From: Escherichia phage vB_EcoM_DE15
DNA length: 53,998 nt
Reading direction: 5' to 3' (one strand)
Sequence record: NC_079184.1
Shown here: positions 2,715 through 27,721 of the stretch, in pieces
How the letters are laid out: the number at the start of each line of letters is the position of its first letter
Position numbering within the stretch: position 1 is the first letter of the stretch
The notes under the pieces: model-generated
What the model saw: the letters and a program-made list of their open reading frames with translations, nothing else
Told to the model about the DNA's origin: nothing
Databases searched by the model: none
Program-made: the position numbers and the translations under genes

Positions 2715-3670
2715 AAAGAATACGGAGAAATATTCCGCATGTCATGTTGAATCATTCTAGAAACATTCAGCATGTCAGCTTTGAGTTACAGCGTTGTAAT
2801 GATGTGGCAATCATTGAACTCCCTGGGAAGGCCACCTATAGTTCCAGCAACCATGACTTAGAGTAGGAATATCTATCCGAAACTTGGACTTCATTGTAGT
2901 TTGGTGTGCTTCATCGTGAGAAAGGTTGTGATAACTTTCGTAAGCAGGTGTTGAACTAACAACAGAACATCGTGTTAGCCATCTTGATTAAGTTACAAGA
3001 AAGTCAACAAATCAGCATGTCTATTAGTAACAATCTTGTTCCTTCTCCTATTATCAAGGCCCACCCACAAGCCGGGAGATAACTTTGACAAGACTGGAAC
3101 TTTTGGACATGCTTCTTTCTTTCTACAAGAATTCGAAAGAAGAGAAGAGTCGGAGCAAAGCCGCGAAACTAATCCCGTAGCCCGCCCCCGATTTTGAGCA
3201 ACAAATATTGTGACAATTGCGTCGCAGTATGGCATGTAAATATTGCTACAAATTGGCATGTTGGAATGTGGCAGAATTGTTAGAGGACTAATCACCTCGA
3301 AGATACAATCGTCTACCAATCTGGCATGTTAATTTTGTAACAGTATTTGTGCCAATTTCGCATGTAATAGTTGTATCAGTATTGACCCAATATTCTTGCA
3401 ACCCGCATGAATACTGGCTTCCAGCCAAGCGAAGGCTTTATCATCGCATGTAATATTGTGACAATATTGGGATAAAACCCTTTATTTAAATCATTTAGTT
3501 TATTAATTAAATGGTCGGTTTTCTGTACATAGGTATTCAACTGTTTGTGCCAAATACAAACAAGTTGGCTGCTTCTACAGAACTCCAGTGCTACAAATGT
3601 TCGTGCCAATCTGCTGCAATTTATCTCATTTGGCGGGGTAATATTGTATTAGGTTGGTACGTCATTATTT

Positions 3671-3964: not shown

Positions 3965-4213
3965 ATGGATACTGTGACTAAAGCTGCTTACTTTAAAGAC
4001 TTGTCAGATGGTCAAATATTTTCTATTCGCTCTGTAAAGTGGATTAAAGTAAATGAATCAGACAAGTACAATGCTGTAAAGTTCTTTGATTCAAGCAAGG
4101 CATGTACTTTTAGTGACAATATTGTTGTAAATATTGAAGTCGAATTAGAGCCAGATGATTCAAATGATGAAATCATTCTGCGTAAAACTGTTGGATACAC
4201 TAAAGGATTCTGA
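3965..4213 (+). CDS. Hypothetical early protein (82 aa)
   Basis: ORF with GGGAG RBS upstream of ATG. Confidence 0.5.
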   Translation: MDTVTKAAYFKDLSDGQIFSIRSVKWIKVNESDKYNAVKFFDSSKACTFSDNIVVNIEVELEPDDSNDEIILRKTVGYTKGF

Positions 4214-4214
4214 A

Positions 4215-4445
4215 ATGGATTATGCACTGTATCACTATATAAGCAGGACTGGGCTTGTTCGTCACGCTTTGGTCAACATTAAAACCAAAGACATACTGTT
4301 GGCTGGCTTGTCAATTTACGAAAACAATTTAGTATGGAAACGTGCTGTACATCCTGGACATGTTTGGGATGTAATTCAGTCTGACAAATACCACAAAATT
4401 GTTGCAATGGCTAACCGACCAGAGCACATCAAGCCGAGGAAATAA
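4215..4445 (+). CDS. Hypothetical early protein (76 aa; ORF track gives 4155 start)
   Basis: ATG at 4215 directly after upstream stop; tight gene packing. Confidence 0.4.
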   Translation: MDYALYHYISRTGLVRHALVNIKTKDILLAGLSIYENNLVWKRAVHPGHVWDVIQSDKYHKIVAMANRPEHIKPRK

Positions 4446-5248: not shown

Positions 5249-5427
5249 ATTATGAGAATCTGCTATTAAGAACTAGTGGTGGGATGCTCATACTGACCAC
5301 ACCTGAGTTTCATTTCACAAGGGTATACTCCGAAGAATTTAAATCCTGGTTCCCAGCAAATCTAAAAACACGATGGCTTAAAGATTGTGTGCCTGTTGGG
5401 AAGAATGTAAAGCTAAGGAGTAAATAA
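5245..5427 (+). CDS. Hypothetical protein (60 aa, GTG start)
   Basis: ORF in track only. Confidence 0.25.
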   Translation: MNYENLLLRTSGGMLILTTPEFHFTRVYSEEFKSWFPANLKTRWLKDCVPVGKNVKLRSK

Positions 5428-6466: not shown

Positions 6467-6694
6467 ATGAAATTTAAATGTGTTGCTTCAACCAAAGATT
6501 ATGTTCCAGTTGGCTTCATCGTTGAAGGTGAAGCTATCTCACCTTTGGAATTTAAAGTGACCAAATCGGCTGAGAGTGTTTCTCCAGCATTTCGTAAAGG
6601 TGCTGTAGTGCCTATGAATGGTACATTCTGGACATGGCAGCGCGACCATGAAGCAGAATTTGCAGACATTTGTGAACAAGGTTTATTGCAATGA
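6467..6694 (+). CDS. Hypothetical protein, paralog A (75 aa)
   Basis: N-terminus MKFKCVASTK..., shares KFKCV.ST and W.W pattern with next gene. Confidence 0.5.
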   Translation: MKFKCVASTKDYVPVGFIVEGEAISPLEFKVTKSAESVSPAFRKGAVVPMNGTFWTWQRDHEAEFADICEQGLLQ

Positions 6695-6921
6695 CAAAGT
6701 TTAAATGTGTGAAATCAACCTCTTCATCTGAACATACTCCGAAAGTTGGGGATGTGATTGAGGGAGAACTTATCCACATACAGAGAAGACACGGAACAGA
6801 CACTCGAATAGTTATTTCGAATGTTGGAAACCGAATGGCTGCAAACGGAAGGCCATATTGGAACATTGGTGAAAAGGTTCCGCTAAAAGGTAGTGTCTGG
6901 TCCTGGGAAGAAGTTAAATAA
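6691..6921 (+). CDS. Hypothetical protein, paralog B (76 aa)
   Basis: N-terminus MTKFKCVKST...; tandem duplicate of previous gene. Confidence 0.5.
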   Translation: MTKFKCVKSTSSSEHTPKVGDVIEGELIHIQRRHGTDTRIVISNVGNRMAANGRPYWNIGEKVPLKGSVWSWEEVK

Positions 6922-6984
6922 TTTCCTCAACCACTTTTGTAATGAGAGTGGTTGCTGAATATTATTAATTAACTTGGAGCATTT

Positions 6985-7275
6985 ATGAAACAACGTACTC
7001 GTTTACAACGTGACCCAGCCACAGGTCGCATGTTGCCAGCATACTTGAAAGTTGGTGACTTGGTTTACACTCGCGACTTTGCTTTTGACATTTGCCCAAG
7101 CAAAGCATATGAAGTTCTTGCCACCAGCTTGTCTGGTCCTAAAGTAATATTTGGTGCACTTGAGCCAATCCAGTTAACCGGAACTCAGTTTGTCATTAAA
7201 GACGAATCTGGTTGCAACCGAATCTTCAATCTTGAAGGAGGTTTATCCAAATGGGAGAAGGTGAAGCGTGGGTAA
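6985..7275 (+). CDS. Hypothetical protein (96 aa)
   Basis: ORF with RBS. Confidence 0.5.
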   Translation: MKQRTRLQRDPATGRMLPAYLKVGDLVYTRDFAFDICPSKAYEVLATSLSGPKVIFGALEPIQLTGTQFVIKDESGCNRIFNLEGGLSKWEKVKRG

Positions 7276-7501
7276 GAATTATATCGAAATGTTTAAGCGA
7301 TTGTCTGTAAATGGGCAGGAGTTCTTGTTAAACGATGCAAGACAAGATATTGAATTGTCTGACAAGTATTCTTATTTTGCCCAAAAGACAATTGTGAAGT
7401 GGACATTCTCTTACATGTCCGCCAGTATTCCAGGAGAAACGCTCGTAATTAGCGGTTCTGGAGATTCAGTTTTAGCAGCTTTGGAGAAACTAAAGCAATG
7501 A
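7268..7501 (+). CDS. Hypothetical protein (77 aa)
   Basis: ORF. Confidence 0.4.
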   Translation: MGKNYIEMFKRLSVNGQEFLLNDARQDIELSDKYSYFAQKTIVKWTFSYMSASIPGETLVISGSGDSVLAALEKLKQ

Positions 7502-7785
7502 ACAAGAATTCAATTTTGCGTTATGTTGGTAAAACAAACTACAACTTTACCAACGGTAAGAAATACAAAATCGTCGCAGGTCGTGGTGACGGGGTTCCTC
7601 GCAACAACGGTACACTCGGTGCGTATATTCAATCTCCTTTGGGTTTTGTCGTTAATGATGATAACAGCAATTTATGTTATCGTACATTCTCCGATAATTG
7701 GGAACTTGTGAAAGATTCTGGTGAAGTTAGTTGGTATAAACCTGAATCAACAATCGACCCAATTCCTATTTCAAAATCTATGTGA
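7498..7785 (+). CDS. Hypothetical protein (95 aa)
   Basis: ORF. Confidence 0.45.
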   Translation: MNKNSILRYVGKTNYNFTNGKKYKIVAGRGDGVPRNNGTLGAYIQSPLGFVVNDDNSNLCYRTFSDNWELVKDSGEVSWYKPESTIDPIPISKSM

Positions 7786-7826
7786 TTAACAATGGGCATC
7801 TTCTGTAGGTGTCCATGATTAATCCA

Positions 7827-7848
7827 ACATTAGTTGAATGTGAATAAC
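7827..7848 (+). promoter_or_regulatory. Phage promoter-like motif ACATTAGTTGAATGTGAATAAC
   Basis: Motif family member 18 nt upstream of next gene. Confidence 0.45.
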
Positions 7849-7865
7849 AACTACTGGAGCAGATT

Positions 7866-8306
7866 ATGCCAATCGTATTCGAAGGTAAGGCCAACGTATT
7901 TACTGTGGATGCACAAACTGTAACTTGTACTGTGAATGTTGTTGGTGTAATGGGTGCTGGTGTTGCAAAAGAGTACAAACGTCGCTACCCAGAGGCATTT
8001 AAGAACTACAGAACTGCGTGTAATCGTGGGTTCAAAACTGGACAATTGTTGCTGCAACGTCTTAATGATGGGCGTCTTGGACTATGTTTCCCAACAAAGC
8101 AACATTGGCAAAATCCTTCTCAACTTGAATGGATTGAGCAAGGTCTTATTAAGCTGGTGGAAACTTACAAGCGGTGTGGAATCACTTCACTTGCAATAAC
8201 CCCACTTGGTTGTGCAAATGGGCAGTTGGATTATGCTACTCAAGTTCGTCCACTTATGCTTAAATATTTAAATCAGTTGGATATTCCAGTATTCATCTGC
8301 AAATGA
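7866..8306 (+). CDS. Macro-domain protein (ADP-ribose binding/hydrolase-like)
   Basis: NVVGVMGAGVAKEY resembles the macro N-x(5)-G-G-G-V loop; SLAITPLGCANGQLD resembles the second glycine loop. Confidence 0.55.
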   Translation: MPIVFEGKANVFTVDAQTVTCTVNVVGVMGAGVAKEYKRRYPEAFKNYRTACNRGFKTGQLLLQRLNDGRLGLCFPTKQHWQNPSQLEWIEQGLIKLVETYKRCGITSLAITPLGCANGQLDYATQVRPLMLKYLNQLDIPVFICK

Positions 8307-8342
8307 TTATCAGGGTGCATTTACGAGTGTACCCGAATAATC

Positions 8343-8363
8343 CAATTAGTTGGATTTGAAGAG
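8343..8363 (+). promoter_or_regulatory. Phage promoter-like motif CAATTAGTTGGATTTGAAGAG
   Basis: Motif family member. Confidence 0.45.
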
Positions 8364-8432
8364 ACAAAGCTATTCCGTGGTTAGCAATGTCACTGAAACT
8401 TAAACTGTAATTAACTTAAGAGAATCTTAATC

Positions 8433-8810
8433 ATGGCACAATATTCAGATGTAAACACTGGCATTATCGGTCCTAACGGCTTCAAGAAAGACCCAAAACA
8501 TCCTGACATTCGTGGACGTATTAACGTTGACGGAATCTGGTATTGGGTATCTGGCTGGAATAAGCAAGCAAATGGTAATGAGTTTACCTCACTTGCATTG
8601 ACCATCATGACTCAGGAACAGGTTGATGAAATGATGCGTAAGCGTGAAGAGAAAGCTAAAGCCAAAGCTCAACCTCAAGCCGCTGCACAACAGCAACAGC
8701 AACGTCAGCAACCTTCTGCTGCACAGCAACAGCAAGCTCCTGCTCAACAACAGCAGGGTAATTACAATCCGAACGAGCCGAAAGGCTTCGACGACGACAT
8801 TCCATTCTAA
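8433..8810 (+). CDS. Small protein with Q/A-rich linker and C-terminal DDDIPF (host SSB acidic tip); SSB-like or SSB-tail mimic
   Basis: C-terminus NEPKGFDDDIPF matches the E. coli SSB tail; preceding low-complexity Gln-rich linker. Confidence 0.55.
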   Translation: MAQYSDVNTGIIGPNGFKKDPKHPDIRGRINVDGIWYWVSGWNKQANGNEFTSLALTIMTQEQVDEMMRKREEKAKAKAQPQAAAQQQQQRQQPSAAQQQQAPAQQQQGNYNPNEPKGFDDDIPF

Positions 8811-8932
8811 TTGGGGATGCCCTATGAAAATTCTATGTTTTATAGGGCTACATAATTGGGAAATTTCACATGAAAACGATTATGTAACCTTTTGGGTTTG
8901 TAGGCATTGTTCAGCAATGCGTGAGGAATATC

Positions 8933-9829
8933 ATGGCAACTAACGTTATTGAAATACCTGCCAACTTAGTCAAAACTGGCGACGTTGTAATTCATGAAGG
9001 TAAAGAGTATCTGATTGGGTATGTCTTCAGAATGGGTGTAGTTCAACTGCAATATTCTGGTGGATGTTTCAATTTTGAGTGGGACCAGGCAGTCAAAATC
9101 TTGGATAAACGTCCTACTACAGACTCCTTTGCAAAACCGGGCGCAACAACACGCGCAGTATTGGCAAGTCAAGTTCGACCCGGCAACACTTTATCTTATG
9201 GAATCAGGCTCTTTAAGATAAAGGAAGTTAAAGACCTGGGGGAAAGTGAGGTTCGCTTAATCCACGAAACAGGCTACTTTGACTTTTTACACAACCGCGT
9301 AGTCCATATTGTTAACGAGCCACCAGCTTTGGAAACTCCAACAATGGCATTCAACACCGAGATAAAGCCAGTGTTCCTTCCTTACGAGGGAGCAGTGAAA
9401 CCATTCTCAGATGAAGAAGATGTTAAAGGTGCTGATGTTGAAGTTGGCGATGTTATCCGGTATAAAGGTGATTGGGCAACTGTCACAAATGCGTACAAAC
9501 ACCCAAATTCACCATACAATAAAATCAATATTAACTACGGCGACGTAAAAGGTTTGCAAGTACGTCTGATATTAACTGGAACTTATTCGAGAAAGGTAAG
9601 AGCAGTAATGGAAACATTAAATATTCAAAATGCAATCGAAGCACAACGTATTCTTCTGCAAAAGCTGGAGCAAATGCTTGATTTAACCCAGCTTCCTCCA
9701 ACAGAAGATGGCAAGATGGCAATTGGCAATGCATCAATTCGTGTGGACAAGGCAACAGTTGTTAAAGCCGCACGCGATGAAATGAAAGCTGCCGCAAACA
9801 AATCAGCAGAGCTTATCAAGAAGCTGTAA
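8933..9829 (+). CDS. Hypothetical protein (~298 aa; ORF track gives GTG 8921)
   Basis: ATG 8933 with GAGGA RBS. Confidence 0.5.
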   Translation: MATNVIEIPANLVKTGDVVIHEGKEYLIGYVFRMGVVQLQYSGGCFNFEWDQAVKILDKRPTTDSFAKPGATTRAVLASQVRPGNTLSYGIRLFKIKEVKDLGESEVRLIHETGYFDFLHNRVVHIVNEPPALETPTMAFNTEIKPVFLPYEGAVKPFSDEEDVKGADVEVGDVIRYKGDWATVTNAYKHPNSPYNKININYGDVKGLQVRLILTGTYSRKVRAVMETLNIQNAIEAQRILLQKLEQMLDLTQLPPTEDGKMAIGNASIRVDKATVVKAARDEMKAAANKSAELIKKL

Positions 9830-10091: not shown

Positions 10092-10227
10092 TATATGTGG
10101 GATATTTATCTTGAAGGTGTTGACGAGCCAATTTCAACACTTAACACACAATTTGTTACGGTTGGGTGTGCAATCCTCTACAAAGGTAAGCTGTACACCG
10201 TATCTAAAATCGTTCAGAGGTTTTAAT

Positions 10228-10578
10228 GTGAAAACTTTATACATTGCACTAACAATCTTATTCGGAGTATTCGCATTCAAATCGGAAGCGTCTGTTCGTA
10301 ACTTCCAATGTGGCGGATACAAAATGTCCGTTGAAACAATTACAATGAACCAGCCACTCATTGCAACAATTTCTTTGCACGAAGGTACTTGGATTGAGAT
10401 TCCAGATAACGGAAATCCTAACCCAATGTCCACAGTGTTCTATAACACACAGAGCAGTAAGCTGGCTTTAGTTGGTGTTGACGCTGAGGAACGTTTAGTG
10501 CTACAGATTTATCGTGACATTGACTTCTTTCATGCCAAATTTCCACTGTTATCCACATATTGTAAGGAAGTTAAATGA
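10228..10578 (+). CDS. Putative secreted protein with N-terminal signal peptide (GTG start)
   Basis: MKTLYIALTILFGVFAFKSEA signal-like N-terminus; ORF track starts it at TTG 10111. Confidence 0.35.
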   Translation: MKTLYIALTILFGVFAFKSEASVRNFQCGGYKMSVETITMNQPLIATISLHEGTWIEIPDNGNPNPMSTVFYNTQSSKLALVGVDAEERLVLQIYRDIDFFHAKFPLLSTYCKEVK

Positions 10579-15014: not shown

Positions 15015-16104
15015 GTTGCCGATGGCAAACTTGAGAGACTAAGCTAAATCGATCTGGCATGCACTGGAAGATTTCCGGTGCTGCCTTGAACCCATTCTGA
15101 AAGGAAGAGTGGGCTTCAATGAGCATTCTTGTGATTAGAGTTGGGAGGTAGGCCGATGCCCAAGCTCATGGCCCAGACAAGAGTGTTCATTGAAGTTACT
15201 TCAATATGGATTGTCGCCAAGTTGTGGAAGGACGTGCACACAGATTTAACGAAGAAAAGTAACAGCCTGAGAACTGTGAAAATTTCCCGTTATGTCGTGG
15301 GGAAGTGCACCATAGCTTGGGTTCTTCACGTAGATATTACTCAGATATTTGCGGCTCGCTGAATGTGAGCATCCATATTGAAGTAGTTTTCTGAGTCTTA
15401 CGACGGGCCTAAACTGCCTGAAGTTATTGCGACTGTTTTATTCATTTAAAATAAATGCAAATGATTCTGAAATGCGAGTTGCGGCTTAATTAAATTTAAG
15501 TCCTCTCCGTGGTCTTCCAATCCCACGTAACCAAATTTGGCGCATTGTGGCTTCGAGATGTGATTAATAAATCGGAGCAATAATTAATTTGTATTCTGCG
15601 ATGCAATGCAGGCTTAAGTCCCTCAGTGCGCGTGGGGATGTGACAGAGTACAAACTTAATTATGCAGTTGGATATTTCTAGAGGACGGACGAGCACACTG
15701 GAATGTCTTCAATTGGTTTAGTGTGAGAAGCTATGCCAATATGAAACGTAACTCCTTGGGGAAGTGCTCCTCTGGATTTCCCTCCACACAGGAATCTCAA
15801 GCCTGTGGCAGCGACTTCGAAGCTGCACTGCGTAACCTAAATTCACCCTAAAGTGAGTTGCCCTGAGTATGGAAATAAACTGCTCATAACCGATGGTATC
15901 TACAAAGGTAGATTAAATCAGGTTGCCTGTTGGTACTTGGGTTCAACACCTGCTTGCACTCGCAAAGTAGTGCCTCGTACCTGAGATGAAGTGAGTCGGG
16001 ACCATCAATCCCACGTTATGTCAAAACACAGTAGGCGGCTCACGGATTCTACAAGCCTCGCAGTTCGGGAAAACCTGCGTTATCAAAACCCCCCTCTTTT
16101 ATTT

Positions 16105-16196
16105 GGACGAGTAGCTCAGAAGGTTTGCATTGTGCTCAGTCAGGTAGAGCAATCTGTTCGACAGATGTGTCGTTGGTTCGAATCCAACCTCGTCCA
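16105..16196 (+). tRNA. tRNA-like gene (anticodon loop GUUCGAC, anticodon UCG, Arg) carrying a 20-nt insertion in the D-loop; possibly pseudo-tRNA
   Basis: Acceptor GGACGAG/CTCGTCC, TA at 8-9, D-stem GCTC/GAGC, T-arm GTTGG-TTCGAAT-CCAAC, discriminator A; D-loop 29 nt with duplicated GCTCAG. Confidence 0.4.
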
Positions 16197-16228
16197 CCCA
16201 CTTTAATAATAGCAATACTGGAGTCCTT

Positions 16229-16614: not shown

Positions 16615-16738
16615 TTACTGCATGATTGCACAACCAATCTATTTGGATGTTGCAGAAGTGAAAGTTTTATCACGCGAAACCAAAACACAGATTTTAGTCC
16701 ACAATGAAACGTGGGCACAAAAGTGTTCGAAACGATGA
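16538..16738 (+). CDS. Lipoprotein in alternate frame overlapping the previous gene, o-spanin-like
   Basis: MFRKKCLAVLIAMSIVSC: signal peptide with lipobox-like IVSC. Confidence 0.3.
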   Translation: MFRKKCLAVLIAMSIVSCSQSGFVSDYCMIAQPIYLDVAEVKVLSRETKTQILVHNETWAQKCSKR

Positions 16739-17181
16739 AATTATCAAAGCAGTATATTTACGACAGAGTTTCTAAGCGTCAGGAACCTACTTGGCAAGTA
16801 GACACAGATGGGTATTTATCTGCTTCGATTACTTTGCCAGAAGGCACTTTCAACGTAAGAAAACACATCTTGGTGTTCTACAAAACAAACGGATACATTC
16901 CAGATTTTGTGGACCATAAAGACAACAACAAATTAAACAATGCTCCAGACAACTTGCGAGAAGCAAGCAAGTGCCAGAATCAACAGAACTCCAAACGACC
17001 AAAGAATAACTCTTCTGGCGTTAAGGGTGTGTCACTAACCAAACACGGTAAATGGCAAGTTCGTATTATGGCAAATGGTGTGAAGCATTACGGTGGATTG
17101 TTTGACTCTCTCGAAGATGCCAAACAACACATAGAATCATTACGATTGAAATTACATAGTGATTTTGCTCGTAGTGTGTAG
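16735..17181 (+). CDS. HNH homing endonuclease with AP2-like DNA-binding domain
   Basis: DHKDNNKLNNAPDNLREASKCQNQQN (HNH) and GVKGVSLTKHGKWQVRIMANGVKHYGGLF (AP2-like). Confidence 0.65.
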   Translation: MKLSKQYIYDRVSKRQEPTWQVDTDGYLSASITLPEGTFNVRKHILVFYKTNGYIPDFVDHKDNNKLNNAPDNLREASKCQNQQNSKRPKNNSSGVKGVSLTKHGKWQVRIMANGVKHYGGLFDSLEDAKQHIESLRLKLHSDFARSV

Positions 17182-22794: not shown

Positions 22795-23039
22795 TGCGTG
22801 TTCTGGCAGTATACGACCTTCATGGTCAACAACTTTATCAAGCGGCTGGAGATGTTCCGGCCACAGAATTGGCGTTGTCTTTAGTTGAGATGCACGCTTT
22901 GGCATTATTTGGTGATGGGTTTACAGACAACTCTGTCTATAAAGCCACAATTAAATCGTTGAAGGAATCAAAAGATTTCTCCGACACTCAATCAATCCTG
23001 TCCAGCGTGGATATGGATTCTCACATTATTGAAATTTAA
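22794..23039 (+). CDS. Hypothetical protein (81 aa)
   Basis: ORF overlapping polymerase stop (TGATG). Confidence 0.45.
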   Translation: MRVLAVYDLHGQQLYQAAGDVPATELALSLVEMHALALFGDGFTDNSVYKATIKSLKESKDFSDTQSILSSVDMDSHIIEI

Positions 23040-26889: not shown

Positions 26890-27495
26890 ATGTCTTGTAT
26901 GACTCAAGTTGTTGCTGTAAAGCGAGTGCATCCTAATGCGAAATTACCTGTGTACGCTACTGCTGGCGCTGCTGCTGCTGACGTTTGCACTATCTCCAAC
27001 AGCACTGTTGTTATCAATCCCGGCTGCTCTGCTGTTTTCGATACTGGCCTCCAGTTCGAGGTTCCAATTGGATACGAACTCAAAGTGCATAGCCGTTCTG
27101 GTCATGGCTTTAAGTCTGGTATTCGCCTGGCAAACTGTACAGGGATTCTGGACTCCGATTATCGTGGTAATCTTATGGTTAAGCTGCACAACGATTCGGA
27201 CACAGCCTTTGTGGTTCAGCCAGGTGAACGTATTTGTCAGGTGCAAGTTAGTAAAGCTACTCAACACCATTTCGTCGAAGTTGACCGCCTGAATGCAACT
27301 GGTCGTGGTGAAGGTGGATTTGGTTCTACTGGACGTGTAGAAGTTGGTGAGCATGGCAACAGTCGTGTAGCACCTGGCAGCTACGACCCAAGTATTACTG
27401 TGCCGTCGAATGGTTCACACTCACACATCATCACTGGCCCAAGTGGAGTCTACGACGTAGGAACTCCAACCCACAACCCCAACATTACCAAGTAA
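26890..27495 (+). CDS. dut: dUTPase with ~50-aa C-terminal extension
   Basis: GILDSDYRGNLMV (motif III) and RGEGGFGSTG (motif V). Confidence 0.75.
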   Translation: MSCMTQVVAVKRVHPNAKLPVYATAGAAAADVCTISNSTVVINPGCSAVFDTGLQFEVPIGYELKVHSRSGHGFKSGIRLANCTGILDSDYRGNLMVKLHNDSDTAFVVQPGERICQVQVSKATQHHFVEVDRLNATGRGEGGFGSTGRVEVGEHGNSRVAPGSYDPSITVPSNGSHSHIITGPSGVYDVGTPTHNPNITK

Positions 27496-27514
27496 TGTAC
27501 CTCATGGAGCATCC

Positions 27515-27721
27515 ATGTTAGAACAGTTGGAAGAACTTCTTTCACATCTTAATGCGGAAGATAACGAAATGGCCTTAGAGTTTAAGGCCAAGTTGAAACA
27601 ACTCCAGGATAAAGCAGACAAAGATGCCTTGTGGCGTGAGTGTCTGGTATCCGGTGGAGTTGATAATTGGTCCTGGTATTCCGAATCCCTTCAGGAGTAT
27701 TGGGACACCTACGGCTATTAA
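27515..27721 (+). CDS. Hypothetical protein (68 aa)
   Basis: ORF. Confidence 0.4.
   Translation: MLEQLEELLSHLNAEDNEMALEFKAKLKQLQDKADKDALWRECLVSGGVDNWSWYSESLQEYWDTYGY

What the first reader, a model, noticed from the sequence alone, without database searches (positions are those of the whole stretch)
7866..8306. Early-region macro-domain protein (possible ADP-ribosylation countermeasure)
The sequence has macro-domain-like glycine loops. Macro domains remove or bind ADP-ribose, and host defences and toxins (for example DarT-type DNA ADP-ribosylation) use ADP-ribosylation, so an early phage macro domain is a plausible anti-defence factor. It is preceded by its own promoter-like motif 18 nt upstream.
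Basis: partly seen in the sequence, partly recalled or inferred. Interest (0 to 1): 0.6.

Follow-up and report, generated by a model that had tools for sequence, protein, structure and literature searches.

The report
Orphan DarG-like macrodomain, likely anti-DarT
This E. coli phage carries, as a self-contained gene cassette, a stand-alone copy of the ADP-ribose-removing domain of the bacterial DarG antitoxin, which most likely strips ADP-ribose that the host DarT defence toxin puts on phage DNA; it is a new member of a recently described kind of phage counter-defence, not a new kind.

Summary
Window 7866..8306 (+) is a 146-aa ORF with a good ribosome-binding site. It scores above Pfam's Macro threshold and folds with high confidence (pLDDT 96.5) into a macro domain.

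It is specifically a DarG-type macro domain:
- Best solved-structure matches are the DarG macrodomains of Thermus and Mycobacterium (TM 0.92/0.89).
- PADLOC DarG gives E=1e-44.
- The catalytic Lys (K78) and Asn (N24) and the ADP-ribose loops are conserved.
- The C-terminal DarT-binding half of DarG is missing, and the genome encodes no DarT.

The protein is 38% identical to PhiKZ gp104 (AdfM), shown in 2026 to remove DarT2 ADP-ribose from DNA and protect jumbo phages from DarTG2. Of the 80 closest cellular relatives, 67 sit next to a DarT gene.

The window is a near-complete Carltongylesvirus (Chaseviridae) genome. The gene lies between two copies of a hairpin plus phage-RNA-polymerase promoter, just upstream of the SSB gene. 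A sister phage carries a NADAR-like gene in the same cassette frame.

This is a new member of a known kind. Activity is inferred, not shown.

The parts
7784..7824 (+). Intergenic hairpin after the upstream gene (7498..7785). It is the counterpart of a hairpin annotated as a terminator in related phages.
   Evidence: RNA fold -18.7 kcal/mol, z=-4.1 against shuffles. The homologous hairpin in SA91KD is annotated as a rho-independent terminator. There is no U-tract, so the simple terminator scan missed it.
7825..7844 (+). Phage-type (phiEcoM-GJ1-like) promoter motif CAACATTAGTTGAATGTGAA, dedicated to the macro gene.
   Evidence: Two mismatches from the SA91KD annotated promoter sequence. The 20-mer has 3 window matches against 0.01 expected by chance. 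About eight related copies exist, all on the + strand.
7856..7859 (+). Shine-Dalgarno GGAG, 6 nt before the start codon.
   Evidence: Read directly from the sequence.
7866..8306 (+). Coding sequence of a 146-aa stand-alone DarG-type macrodomain (pI 9.3). Inferred active-site residues are N24, T77-K78, H80-W81 and G115-C-A-N118-G119.
   Evidence: Purifying selection: 37 synonymous against 6 non-synonymous codon differences versus TH37.
8305..8342 (+). Hairpin closing the cassette; it overlaps the stop codon.
   Evidence: RNA fold -18.0 kcal/mol, z=-6.2. The same sequence follows the alternative cargo gene in phage Pel53 and the macro gene in TH37.
8341..8360 (+). Second copy of the phage promoter motif (CCAATTAGTTGGATTTGAAG), serving the downstream SSB gene (8433..8810).
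   Evidence: It is the positional homologue of the SA91KD promoter annotated upstream of the SSB gene.

Best explanation
The gene encodes an orphan, macro-only relative of the DarG2 antitoxin, that is, an AdfM-type 'anti-DarT factor'.

**Proposed mechanism (inferred).**
1. Once the phage's own RNA polymerase is made, it transcribes the gene from the dedicated promoter at 7825-7844, alongside the adjacent SSB gene.
2. The basic 16-kDa enzyme binds ADP-ribose attached to thymidine in single-stranded phage DNA. A host DarT2-type toxin places that modification during infection.
3. The enzyme hydrolyses the base-ribose bond using K78, positioned by N24 and W81. This restores unmodified DNA, so replication and packaging can proceed.
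4. It acts purely as an eraser. It lacks the C-terminal DarT-binding domain, so it cannot sequester the toxin as full-length DarG does.

**Shown here:** ORF, fold, family, conserved catalytic residues, orphan status, cassette architecture and distribution.

**Inferred:** substrate, timing of expression and protection phenotype.
For: **Family and fold**
- Pfam Macro passes above its gathering score.
- PDB sequence hits: Mtb DarG macro E=2.6e-27, Thermosipho DarTG E=7.8e-25, Taq DarG macro E=4.2e-22. TARG1 reaches only E=0.04.
- The AF2 model has pLDDT 96.5.
- Foldseek top four hits are all DarG or DarTG. 5m3e gives TM 0.92 and rmsd 1.5 A; TARG1 follows at TM 0.82.
- PADLOC DarG gives E=1.2e-44. 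NCBIfam's only hit is antitoxin_DarG. Both match the macro part of the profile only.

**Active site**
- Residues shown to matter in TaqDarG are K80 (catalytic) and N22, with H82 and W83 nearby (PMC5179494).
- They align to K78, N24, H80 and W81.
- N24 is invariant and K78 and W81 are at least 90% conserved in 55 homologues.

**Experimentally characterised homologue**
- The protein is 38% identical (E=5e-34) to PhiKZ gp104/AdfM.
- AdfM removes DarT2 ADP-ribose from DNA, neutralises DarT2 toxicity and is needed for plating on DarTG2 hosts (PMC13309987).
- The window protein shares AdfM's GCANG loop and its Ala in place of Taq K29.

**Cellular relatives**
- 67 of the 80 closest bacterial or archaeal loci have a DarT-family gene adjacent on the same strand.
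- These assignments were checked with Pfam, PADLOC and NCBIfam.
- One of these is a bona fide DarG scoring above the equivalog cut-off, 45% identical in its macro domain.

**Orphan status and selection**
- No DarT-like ORF exists in the window.
- The gene is under purifying selection.

**Cassette context**
- A sister phage holds a NADAR-like gene in the identical cassette frame. NADAR proteins are the other DNA-ADP-ribose erasers used by phages (PMC11825919).
- The two gene families are adjacent in an Erwinia jumbo phage.
Against: - No assay exists for this protein or for any Chaseviridae or Kuravirus homologue. No paper linking these phage groups to DarTG was found.
- Identity to the characterised enzymes is only 38-40%, so base or substrate specificity could differ.
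- Taq K29, whose K29E mutant is impaired, is Ala here. AdfM, which is active, also has Ala there.
- Most of the closest cellular relatives (53 of 67) pair with an atypical long DarT in reversed gene order. The target of that DarT is uncharacterised.
- Macro domains are functionally versatile.
Confidence: 0.7

Rival explanations
1. The enzyme reverses a different nucleic-acid ADP-ribosylation, not classical DarT2 thymidine-ADPr. Candidates are the product of the uncharacterised 'reversed-order, long DarT' systems, a different base, or RNA ADP-ribosylation by other defence transferases.
For: - 53 of the 80 closest cellular relatives sit upstream of a ~330-aa DarT-like protein. That protein passes Pfam DarT, but the one tested example (L011) gave no NCBIfam hit at all, DarT included.
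- Identity to canonical DarG2 macros is no higher than identity to these variants.
Against: - The single closest cellular relative (53%, Lyngbya) sits in the canonical order, behind a ~196-aa DarT that scores 149.8 bits against the equivalog cut-off of 150.
- W81 and H80, proposed to position the thymine, are conserved.
- The characterised phage homologue acts on DarT2 products.
Confidence: 0.15
2. The protein is a protein-ADP-ribose hydrolase or a small-molecule enzyme or binder. Possibilities include a TARG1-like Glu-ADPr eraser, ADP-ribose-1''-phosphate phosphatase or O-acetyl-ADPr deacetylase as the legacy annotations say, or a sponge or hydrolase for ADPR-derived immune signals.
For: - Database names for homologues are 'Appr-1-p processing enzyme', 'phosphatase' and 'O-acetyl-ADP-ribose deacetylase'.
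- TARG1 is the next-best structural neighbour (TM 0.82) and shares the catalytic Lys.
Against: - Those names are generic macro-domain labels, not tested functions.
- Sequence similarity to TARG1 is marginal (E=0.04) against 1e-22 to 1e-27 for DarG.
- By the alignment, TARG1's second catalytic residue Asp125 is Gly119 here, as in DarG (the TARG1 sequence was recalled from memory).
- Genomic partners of cellular relatives are DarT, not sirtuins or TIR proteins.
Confidence: 0.1
3. The protein serves the phage's own ADP-ribosylation programme as an eraser paired with a phage ADP-ribosyltransferase, or it is a decaying passenger gene with no role.
For: - Some Streptomyces phage homologues lie in genes annotated as ADP-ribosyltransferase.
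- The gene is absent from most cultured Carltongylesvirus genomes.
Against: - No DarT-like transferase was found in the window, and none is annotated in the close relative SA91KD. Other transferase families were not exhaustively searched.
- There is strong purifying selection, 37 synonymous against 6 non-synonymous codon changes versus TH37.
- The active site is intact, and the gene has its own promoter and ribosome-binding site.
- The gene is conserved in all 41 matching Kuravirus records.
Confidence: 0.05

Closest known systems
AdfM (PhiKZ gp104), anti-DarT factor macro of chimalliviruses (PMC13309987)
   Same: - Phage-encoded, stand-alone, DarG2-like macro domain of similar size.
- 38% identity, E=5e-34.
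- Same catalytic Asn (N23 in AdfM, N24 here) and Lys.
- Same GCANG loop and the same Ala in the first glycine loop.
- No adjacent DarT.
   Different: - The host phage is a 54-kb Chaseviridae myovirus, taken from its taxonomy not to build a phage nucleus (not checked in the sequence). The nuclear import and 'synergy with the nucleus' part of the AdfM story would then not apply.
- It lacks AdfM's ~9-residue insertion and its C-terminal tail.
- It has H80-W81 as in DarG, where AdfM has N-W.
- It is carried as a promoter-to-promoter cassette.
- It is untested experimentally.
DarG (DarG2) antitoxin of the DarTG2 toxin-antitoxin and defence system (PDB 5M31/5M3E/5M3I; NCBIfam NF048014)
   Same: - Macro fold, TM 0.89-0.92.
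- 39-40% identity to the solved macrodomains and up to 53% to genomic relatives.
- Catalytic K, N and HW, and the ADP-ribose loops, are conserved.
   Different: - Only the N-terminal ~145 residues are present. The C-terminal DarT-binding domain is absent: profile positions 6-144 of 338 are matched, at 142.8 bits against a cut-off of 250.
- There is no darT partner.
- It is encoded by a lytic phage, not by a bacterial TA operon.
phiEco32 gp37 and its Kuravirus orthologues ('Appr-1-p processing enzyme family protein' or 'phosphatase')
   Same: - Nearest named relatives: 79-81% amino-acid identity over the full length, and the same size.
- Both infect E. coli.
   Different: - An unrelated podovirus lineage with a different genomic context, next to the phage sigma factor gene.
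- DNA similarity is confined to the coding sequence.
- There it is found in all 41 matching Kuravirus records. In Carltongylesvirus it is a rare accessory gene.
- It is also uncharacterised.
AdfN (phage NADAR orphan antitoxins against DarTG1; PMC11825919)
   Same: - Same logic: a phage carries an orphan copy of the antitoxin's eraser domain to strip DarT-made ADP-ribose from its DNA.
- A NADAR-like gene occupies the same cassette frame in the sister phage Pel53.
   Different: - Unrelated fold (NADAR, not macro).
- Different base specificity: guanosine for NADAR, thymidine for DarG2-type macros.
Human TARG1/OARD1
   Same: - Same macro subclass.
- The catalytic Lys is at the equivalent position, K84 in TARG1 and K78 here.
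- TM 0.82.
   Different: - About 19-20% identity, with a sequence E-value of only 0.04.
- The Asp125 equivalent is Gly.
- TARG1 is a eukaryotic protein-ADPr hydrolase.

Membership tests
Macro domain superfamily (Pfam PF01661) | Sequence matches the family HMM above the curated gathering score. | tested here: met
   35 bits against a cut-off of 22, E=1.5e-8, profile positions 3-112 of 118.
Macro domain superfamily (Pfam PF01661) | Three-layer alpha/beta/alpha macro fold with a mixed beta-sheet. | tested here: met
   The AF2 model has pLDDT 96.5 and pTM 0.90. 185 PDB matches have E<=0.001; the 50 best listed are macro domains or engineered proteins built on macro-like scaffolds.
Macro domain superfamily (Pfam PF01661) | Binds ADP-ribose. 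| not testable with these tools
   The binding-loop residues are conserved, but binding needs ITC, a crystal soak or a pull-down.
DarG-type (TARG1-like) macro hydrolases | Catalytic lysine in the T-K motif (Taq K80), plus the Asn (Taq N22) needed for turnover. | tested here: met
   T77-K78 and N24 align to Taq T79-K80 and N22. N24 is invariant and K78 at least 90% conserved in 55 homologues.
DarG-type (TARG1-like) macro hydrolases | Closer to DarG than to any other macro class, by sequence and by structure. | tested here: met
   PDB sequence E-values are 1e-22 to 1e-27 for DarG against 0.04 or worse for all others. The Foldseek top four are DarG or DarTG. DarG is the only PADLOC hit and the only NCBIfam hit.
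DarG antitoxin of a DarTG2 toxin-antitoxin system (NCBIfam NF048014 equivalog) | Full-length two-domain protein: macro domain plus C-terminal DarT-binding domain, scoring above the equivalog cut-off. | tested here: not met
   The protein is 146 aa and matches profile positions 6-144 of 338 only. It scores 142.8 bits against a cut-off of 250. PADLOC matches positions 6-142 of 329.
DarG antitoxin of a DarTG2 toxin-antitoxin system (NCBIfam NF048014 equivalog) | Encoded next to a cognate darT toxin gene. | tested here: not met
   A DarT HMM built from 66 neighbours of cellular homologues finds nothing among the 282 window ORFs (best E=0.33). The neighbours are a small conserved phage gene and the SSB gene.
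AdfM-type phage orphan DarG2-like macrodomains | Phage-encoded stand-alone macro protein homologous to PhiKZ gp104, with a conserved catalytic Asn. | tested here: met
   38% identity, E=5e-34. N24 equals AdfM N23. The window is a Chaseviridae phage genome.
AdfM-type phage orphan DarG2-like macrodomains | Removes DarT2-made ADP-ribose from ssDNA and neutralises DarT2 toxicity. | not testable with these tools
   This needs an in vitro de-ADP-ribosylation assay and co-expression assays, as in PMC13309987.
AdfM-type phage orphan DarG2-like macrodomains | Required for phage growth on DarTG2-carrying hosts. | not testable with these tools
   This needs a deletion or K78A mutant plated on DarTG2+ E. 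coli. No published data were found for Chaseviridae or Kuravirus.
TARG1/OARD1 orthologues | Lys84/Asp125 catalytic pair and clear sequence orthology. | tested here: not met
   The Lys is present, but the Asp125 position is Gly119 (the TARG1 sequence was recalled from memory). Sequence E-value is only 0.04, with 18-20% identity.

The most novel reading that the evidence does not exclude
The interval between the conserved 95-aa gene and the SSB gene of Cleopatravirinae phages may be a plug-and-play slot. Duplicated hairpin-plus-promoter units would act as recombination handles. Through this slot the phages would swap base-specific DNA-ADP-ribose erasers, or unrelated small genes:
- a DarG-like macro (anti-DarT2, thymidine) in this phage and TH37;
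- a NADAR-like protein (anti-DarT1, guanosine) in Pel53.

The slot content would then tune host range against whichever DarTG type local E. coli carry. A further unexcluded twist is that the macro's real target is the product of the widespread, uncharacterised reversed-order 'long DarT' systems found next to its closest bacterial relatives.
Probability: 0.35. Interest if true: 0.6.

Novelty: new member of a known kind. Interest (0 to 1): 0.4.

Why it matters
DarTG systems are common anti-phage defences. Orphan antitoxin-like erasers are an emerging class of phage counter-defence: AdfN against DarTG1 (2025) and AdfM against DarTG2 (2026).

So far AdfM is documented only in nucleus-forming jumbo phages of Pseudomonas and Erwinia. 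This finding would extend the strategy to small, genetically tractable E. coli phages:
- a Carltongylesvirus, represented by this window;
- by 80% identity, every matching Kuravirus record, including BASEL phages Bas90 and Bas91.

In those phages the eraser must work without a phage nucleus.

The work also corrects uninformative database labels ('phosphatase', 'Appr-1-p processing enzyme'). It offers a predictor of host range on DarTG2-positive clinical or veterinary E. coli, which is relevant because these phage groups are being isolated for therapy and biocontrol.

The macro/NADAR-like cassette exchange, if real, would show how counter-defence genes move as promoter-bounded modules.

Tried and rejected
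- **Sigma-70 promoter reading.** The scan found 5 sites against 6.7 expected in 6500-9500, none upstream of the gene on the + strand. The upstream motif is the phage-polymerase type instead.
- **Intrinsic terminator scan.** It found nothing, because the flanking hairpins lack a U-tract. The hairpins are nonetheless strongly non-random.
- **'Recent transfer from Kuravirus'.** DNA similarity to phiEco32 is about 70% and confined to the coding sequence, with 66 synonymous codon differences. The relationship is not recent.
- **'One-off insertion'.** Divergent ~53-kb metagenomic contigs carry macro genes 67-74% identical. One of them has the same promoter-macro-hairpin-promoter-SSB layout.
- **Compositional foreignness.** GC is 41.5% for the gene against 40-42% for the flanks, so there is no signal.
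- **Pel53 'DUF1768' annotation.**
  - Pfam gave no hit.
  - PHROGs gave only families of unknown function.
  - The PDB sequence search gave only noise.
  - Only structure prediction plus Foldseek gave NADAR-family matches, and these are moderate, at TM 0.5-0.6.
- **Literature.**
  - A search for PDB code 7OMU returned nothing. The entry was identified from the Foldseek description instead.
  - No paper connects Chaseviridae or Kuravirus with DarTG.
- **Neighbouring genes.** The neighbours (6985..7785, 8921..9829) have no Pfam family and add no functional context.
- **Not used.** The large representative-protein search, the metagenome scan, and the third homology search were not needed.

Full report
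**1. The observation**

Window 7866..8306 (+) is an intact ATG-initiated ORF of 146 codons. GGAG lies 6 nt upstream of the start. No competing ORF on either strand has comparable support.

- The protein passes Pfam's curated Macro threshold (35 bits against 22).
- It hits PHROG 335 at 1.6e-29.
They are invariant or nearly so in an alignment of 55 homologues.

**2. The genome and its promoters**

The window is essentially a complete genome of a Chaseviridae / Cleopatravirinae / Carltongylesvirus phage, the phiEcoM-GJ1 group.

- A 4-kb probe matches E. coli phages SA91KD and ST32 at about 95% identity.
- The gene order of SA91KD maps onto the window from end to end.
- Chaseviruses encode a single-subunit RNA polymerase (PMC12842549).
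- The SA91KD record annotates phiEcoM-GJ1-type promoters.

The same motif, consensus aCATTAGTTGGATgTGAa, occurs about eight times in the window, always on the + strand. Sites are near 571, 2697, 3674, 7830, 8346, 12347, 14584 and 43082. One copy, at 7825-7844, sits just upstream of the macro gene. A sigma-70 scan shows no enrichment.

**3. What kind of macro domain it is**

Sequence comparison with all PDB chains puts three DarG or DarTG entries far ahead of everything else:

| Entry | E-value |
|---|---|
| Mtb DarG macrodomain, 5M3I | 2.6e-27 |
| Thermosipho DarTG, 7OMU | 7.8e-25 |
| Taq DarG macrodomain, 5M31 | 4.2e-22 |
| Next macro family, TARG1 | 0.04 |

- The AlphaFold model is very confident (pLDDT 96.5).
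- Its four best Foldseek matches are again DarG or DarTG. 5M3E gives TM 0.92 and rmsd 1.5 A. TARG1 follows at TM 0.82.
- PADLOC's DarG model gives E=1.2e-44. NCBIfam returns only antitoxin_DarG.
- Both profile matches stop at about position 145 of roughly 330. The NCBIfam score of 142.8 bits is below the equivalog cut-off of 250.

The protein is therefore the macro half of DarG without the DarT-binding half.

**4. The active site**

In TaqDarG, K80 is the catalytic lysine and K80A is inactive. N22A has the next strongest effect. H82 and W83 line the entrance, and W83 is proposed to stack on the thymine. G117, G119, N120 and G121 grip ADP-ribose (PMC5179494).

In the alignment these positions correspond as follows:

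| TaqDarG | Window protein | Note |
|---|---|---|
| K80 | K78 | catalytic lysine |
| N22 | N24 | |
| H82 / W83 | H80 / W81 | |
| G117-A-G119-N120-G121 | G115-C-A117-N118-G119 | |
| K29 | A31 | K29E is impaired in TaqDarG |

The Ala at position 31 and the GCANG loop are shared with PhiKZ AdfM, which is catalytically active. The protein is basic (pI 9.3), which fits nucleic-acid binding.

**5. The experimentally characterised relative**

A 2026 paper (PMC13309987) reports the following for the stand-alone macro protein gp104 of PhiKZ, named AdfM:

- It removes DarT2-made ADP-ribose from a TNTC oligonucleotide.
- Its N23A mutant is impaired.
- It rescues DarT2 toxicity.
- It is needed for PhiKZ and PhiPA3 to plate on DarTG2-expressing hosts.

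The window protein is 38% identical to AdfM (E=5e-34), with the mutated Asn conserved. tblastn over 50,697 phage records links the two through a continuum of jumbo-phage homologues at 30-47% identity.

**6. Cellular relatives**

A scan of one genome per prokaryotic species returned 585 relatives, of which the best 80 (43-53% identity) were kept. An iterated HMM search of their flanks finds a DarT-family ORF adjacent on the same strand in 67 of the 80. Several of the remaining 13 lie on short contigs.

- Fourteen have the canonical order, darT (~200 aa) followed by darG (~370 aa). One of these is a DarG above NCBIfam's equivalog cut-off (Faecalibacillus, 264 bits; its macro is 45% identical to the window protein).
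- Fifty-three have the reverse order: a ~300-aa macro protein followed by a ~330-aa DarT-like protein. Three examples of that DarT-like protein pass Pfam DarT at 42-82 bits against a cut-off of 22.5. The one example scanned against NCBIfam (L011) gave no hit.

In cells this macro lineage is almost always the partner of a DarT. In the phage it is alone. The same DarT HMM finds nothing among 282 window ORFs.

**7. Cassette anatomy and distribution**

Relative to SA91KD, the macro gene (7844-8305) is the largest window-specific segment within the 50 kb of SA91KD that was compared. Three-way alignment and the Pel53 locus give these layouts. Here g16 is the conserved 95-aa gene, T a hairpin and P the phage promoter.

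| Phage | Layout |
|---|---|
| SA91KD | g16 - g17 - g18 - T/P - SSB |
| TH37 | g18 - T/P - macro - T/P - SSB |
| Window | g16 - T/P - macro - T/P - SSB |
| Pel53 | g16 - T/P - 160-aa gene - T/P - SSB |

- The two hairpins fold at -18.7 and -18.0 kcal/mol (z -4.1 and -6.2).
- The 3' junction, TGATTATCAGGGTGCATTTACGAGTGTACCCGAATAATCCAATTAGTTGGAT, is identical after the macro gene (window, TH37) and after the Pel53 gene.
- The two cargos are therefore alternative contents of one promoter-bounded frame.

Among cultured phages the macro gene occurs in one other Chaseviridae genome (TH37, 96% amino-acid identity). It also occurs in all 41 matching Kuravirus (phiEco32-like) records at 79-81% identity, including BASEL Bas90 and Bas91.

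Metagenomic ~53-kb contigs carry versions 67-98% identical. One divergent contig repeats the P-macro-hairpin-P-SSB layout.

The gene is under purifying selection. Synonymous against non-synonymous codon differences are 37:6 versus TH37 and 66:30 versus phiEco32.

**8. The alternative cargo**

The Pel53 protein is annotated 'DUF1768 family' (DUF1768 is, from my own knowledge, the former name of the NADAR family).

- Pfam, PHROGs and the PDB sequence search do not confirm this.
- A confident model of a 98%-identical homologue (pLDDT 95.8) has only three matches better than E=0.1 in the PDB. All three are NADAR family: YbiA 2B3W, Phytophthora NADAR with ADP-ribose 8BAU, and Geobacter NADAR 8BAT. 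TM is 0.49-0.59.
- I rate the NADAR assignment as moderately supported.

NADAR proteins are the guanosine-specific DNA-ADP-ribose erasers. They form the antitoxin of DarTG1 and occur as orphan AdfN in T-even, T5-like and Vequintavirinae phages (PMC11825919).

In Erwinia jumbo phage Special G, the macro homologue gp154 is 40% identical to the window protein. It lies 30 nt upstream of gp155, whose N-terminal 150 residues are 42% identical to the Pel53 protein. The two families alternate in one slot in Chaseviridae and sit side by side in a jumbo phage. This is circumstantial support for a shared anti-DarT theme.

**9. Mechanism**

*Shown:* a real, conserved, separately promoted gene for a DarG-type macro domain, with an intact catalytic constellation, no toxin partner and no toxin-binding domain.

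*Inferred:*
- The phage RNA polymerase transcribes it from 7825-7844, with or just before the SSB gene.
- The enzyme hydrolyses thymidine-linked ADP-ribose that DarT2 deposits on single-stranded phage DNA.
- This relieves the block to replication or packaging.
- Lacking the C-terminal domain, it acts catalytically on the product rather than by binding the toxin. It could therefore work against diverse DarT2 variants, as argued for AdfN.

I put this at about 0.7. The rivals are:
- a different nucleic-acid ADP-ribosylation target, notably the uncharacterised long-DarT systems (0.15);
- a protein or small-molecule ADP-ribose function (0.10);
- a phage-internal role or no role (0.05).

**10. Comparison and novelty**

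The protein works like DarG's macro domain and like AdfM. It is not a DarG antitoxin, because two defining features were tested and not met (two-domain architecture, adjacent darT). It fits the sequence-level definition of the AdfM type; the functional criteria are untestable here.

What is new is modest:
- extension of the AdfM strategy to small E. coli phages that, going by their taxonomy, do not form a phage nucleus;
- re-annotation of a gene long labelled 'Appr-1-p processing enzyme';
- the promoter-bounded cassette with a macro/NADAR-like swap.

Verdict: new member of a known kind, interest about 0.4.

Noticed in passing
window 571, 2697, 3674, 7830, 8346, 12347, 14584, 43082 (+ strand; coordinates of the TTAGTTGGAT core): A family of about eight phage-polymerase-type promoter motifs (aCATTAGTTGGATgTGAa), all on the + strand. 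Several are preceded by a strong hairpin. They match sites annotated as phiEcoM-GJ1-like promoters in SA91KD.
   Followed up: partly
L005 (Pel53, PP952070.1) 1867-2349, with flanks 1790-1866 and 2347-2420: A sister Cleopatravirinae phage carries a 160-aa gene in exactly the same hairpin-promoter frame as the window's macro gene. Its depositors call it DUF1768, and here it is NADAR-like by fold only (TM 0.5-0.6). The 3' junction is identical.
   Followed up: yes
L009-L088 (bacterial and archaeal genome loci), e.g. L011 2983-4873, L030, L078: 53 of the 80 closest cellular relatives form a reversed-order operon. A ~300-aa macro protein, whose C-terminal half does not match DarG profiles, is followed by a ~330-aa DarT-like protein with a C-terminal extension. 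This may be an undescribed DarTG subtype.
   Followed up: partly
L089 (Erwinia phage Special G, NC_041975.1) 2243-2689 and 2719-3600: In this jumbo phage a macro (AdfM-like) gene and a gene whose N-terminal half is homologous to the Pel53 NADAR-like protein are adjacent, 30 nt apart, next to uvsX. gp155 has an extra ~140-aa C-terminal part of unknown nature.
   Followed up: partly
window 16711-17181 (+): A 156-aa ORF lies in a segment absent from SA91KD. By eye its sequence looks like an HNH/AP2-type homing endonuclease; it was not scanned against any library.
   Followed up: no
window 16104-16200 (+): The single tRNA gene is tRNA-Leu(CAG). At 97 nt it is unusually long. It lies in a stretch with few convincing ORFs (about 15.5-17.5 kb).
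   Followed up: no
window 2885-3003, 4212-4442, 5249-5425, 10093-10228, 15662-15833, 22798-23029, 27354-27716: These are further window-specific segments with no blastn match in SA91KD. They include a 68-aa ORF at 27515..27721 after the dUTPase-like gene. They are other small accessory genes of unknown function.
   Followed up: no
L005 / PP952070.1 record as a whole: 'Staphylococcus phage Pel53' (host given as Staphylococcus hyicus) is about 86% identical at the DNA level to E. coli Carltongylesvirus phages. The host label looks doubtful.
   Followed up: no
L001 3000-3197 (SA91KD gp18): One of the two small genes occupying the slot in SA91KD belongs to Pfam DUF7279 (54 bits). It is another uncharacterised occupant of this variable position.
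   Followed up: no
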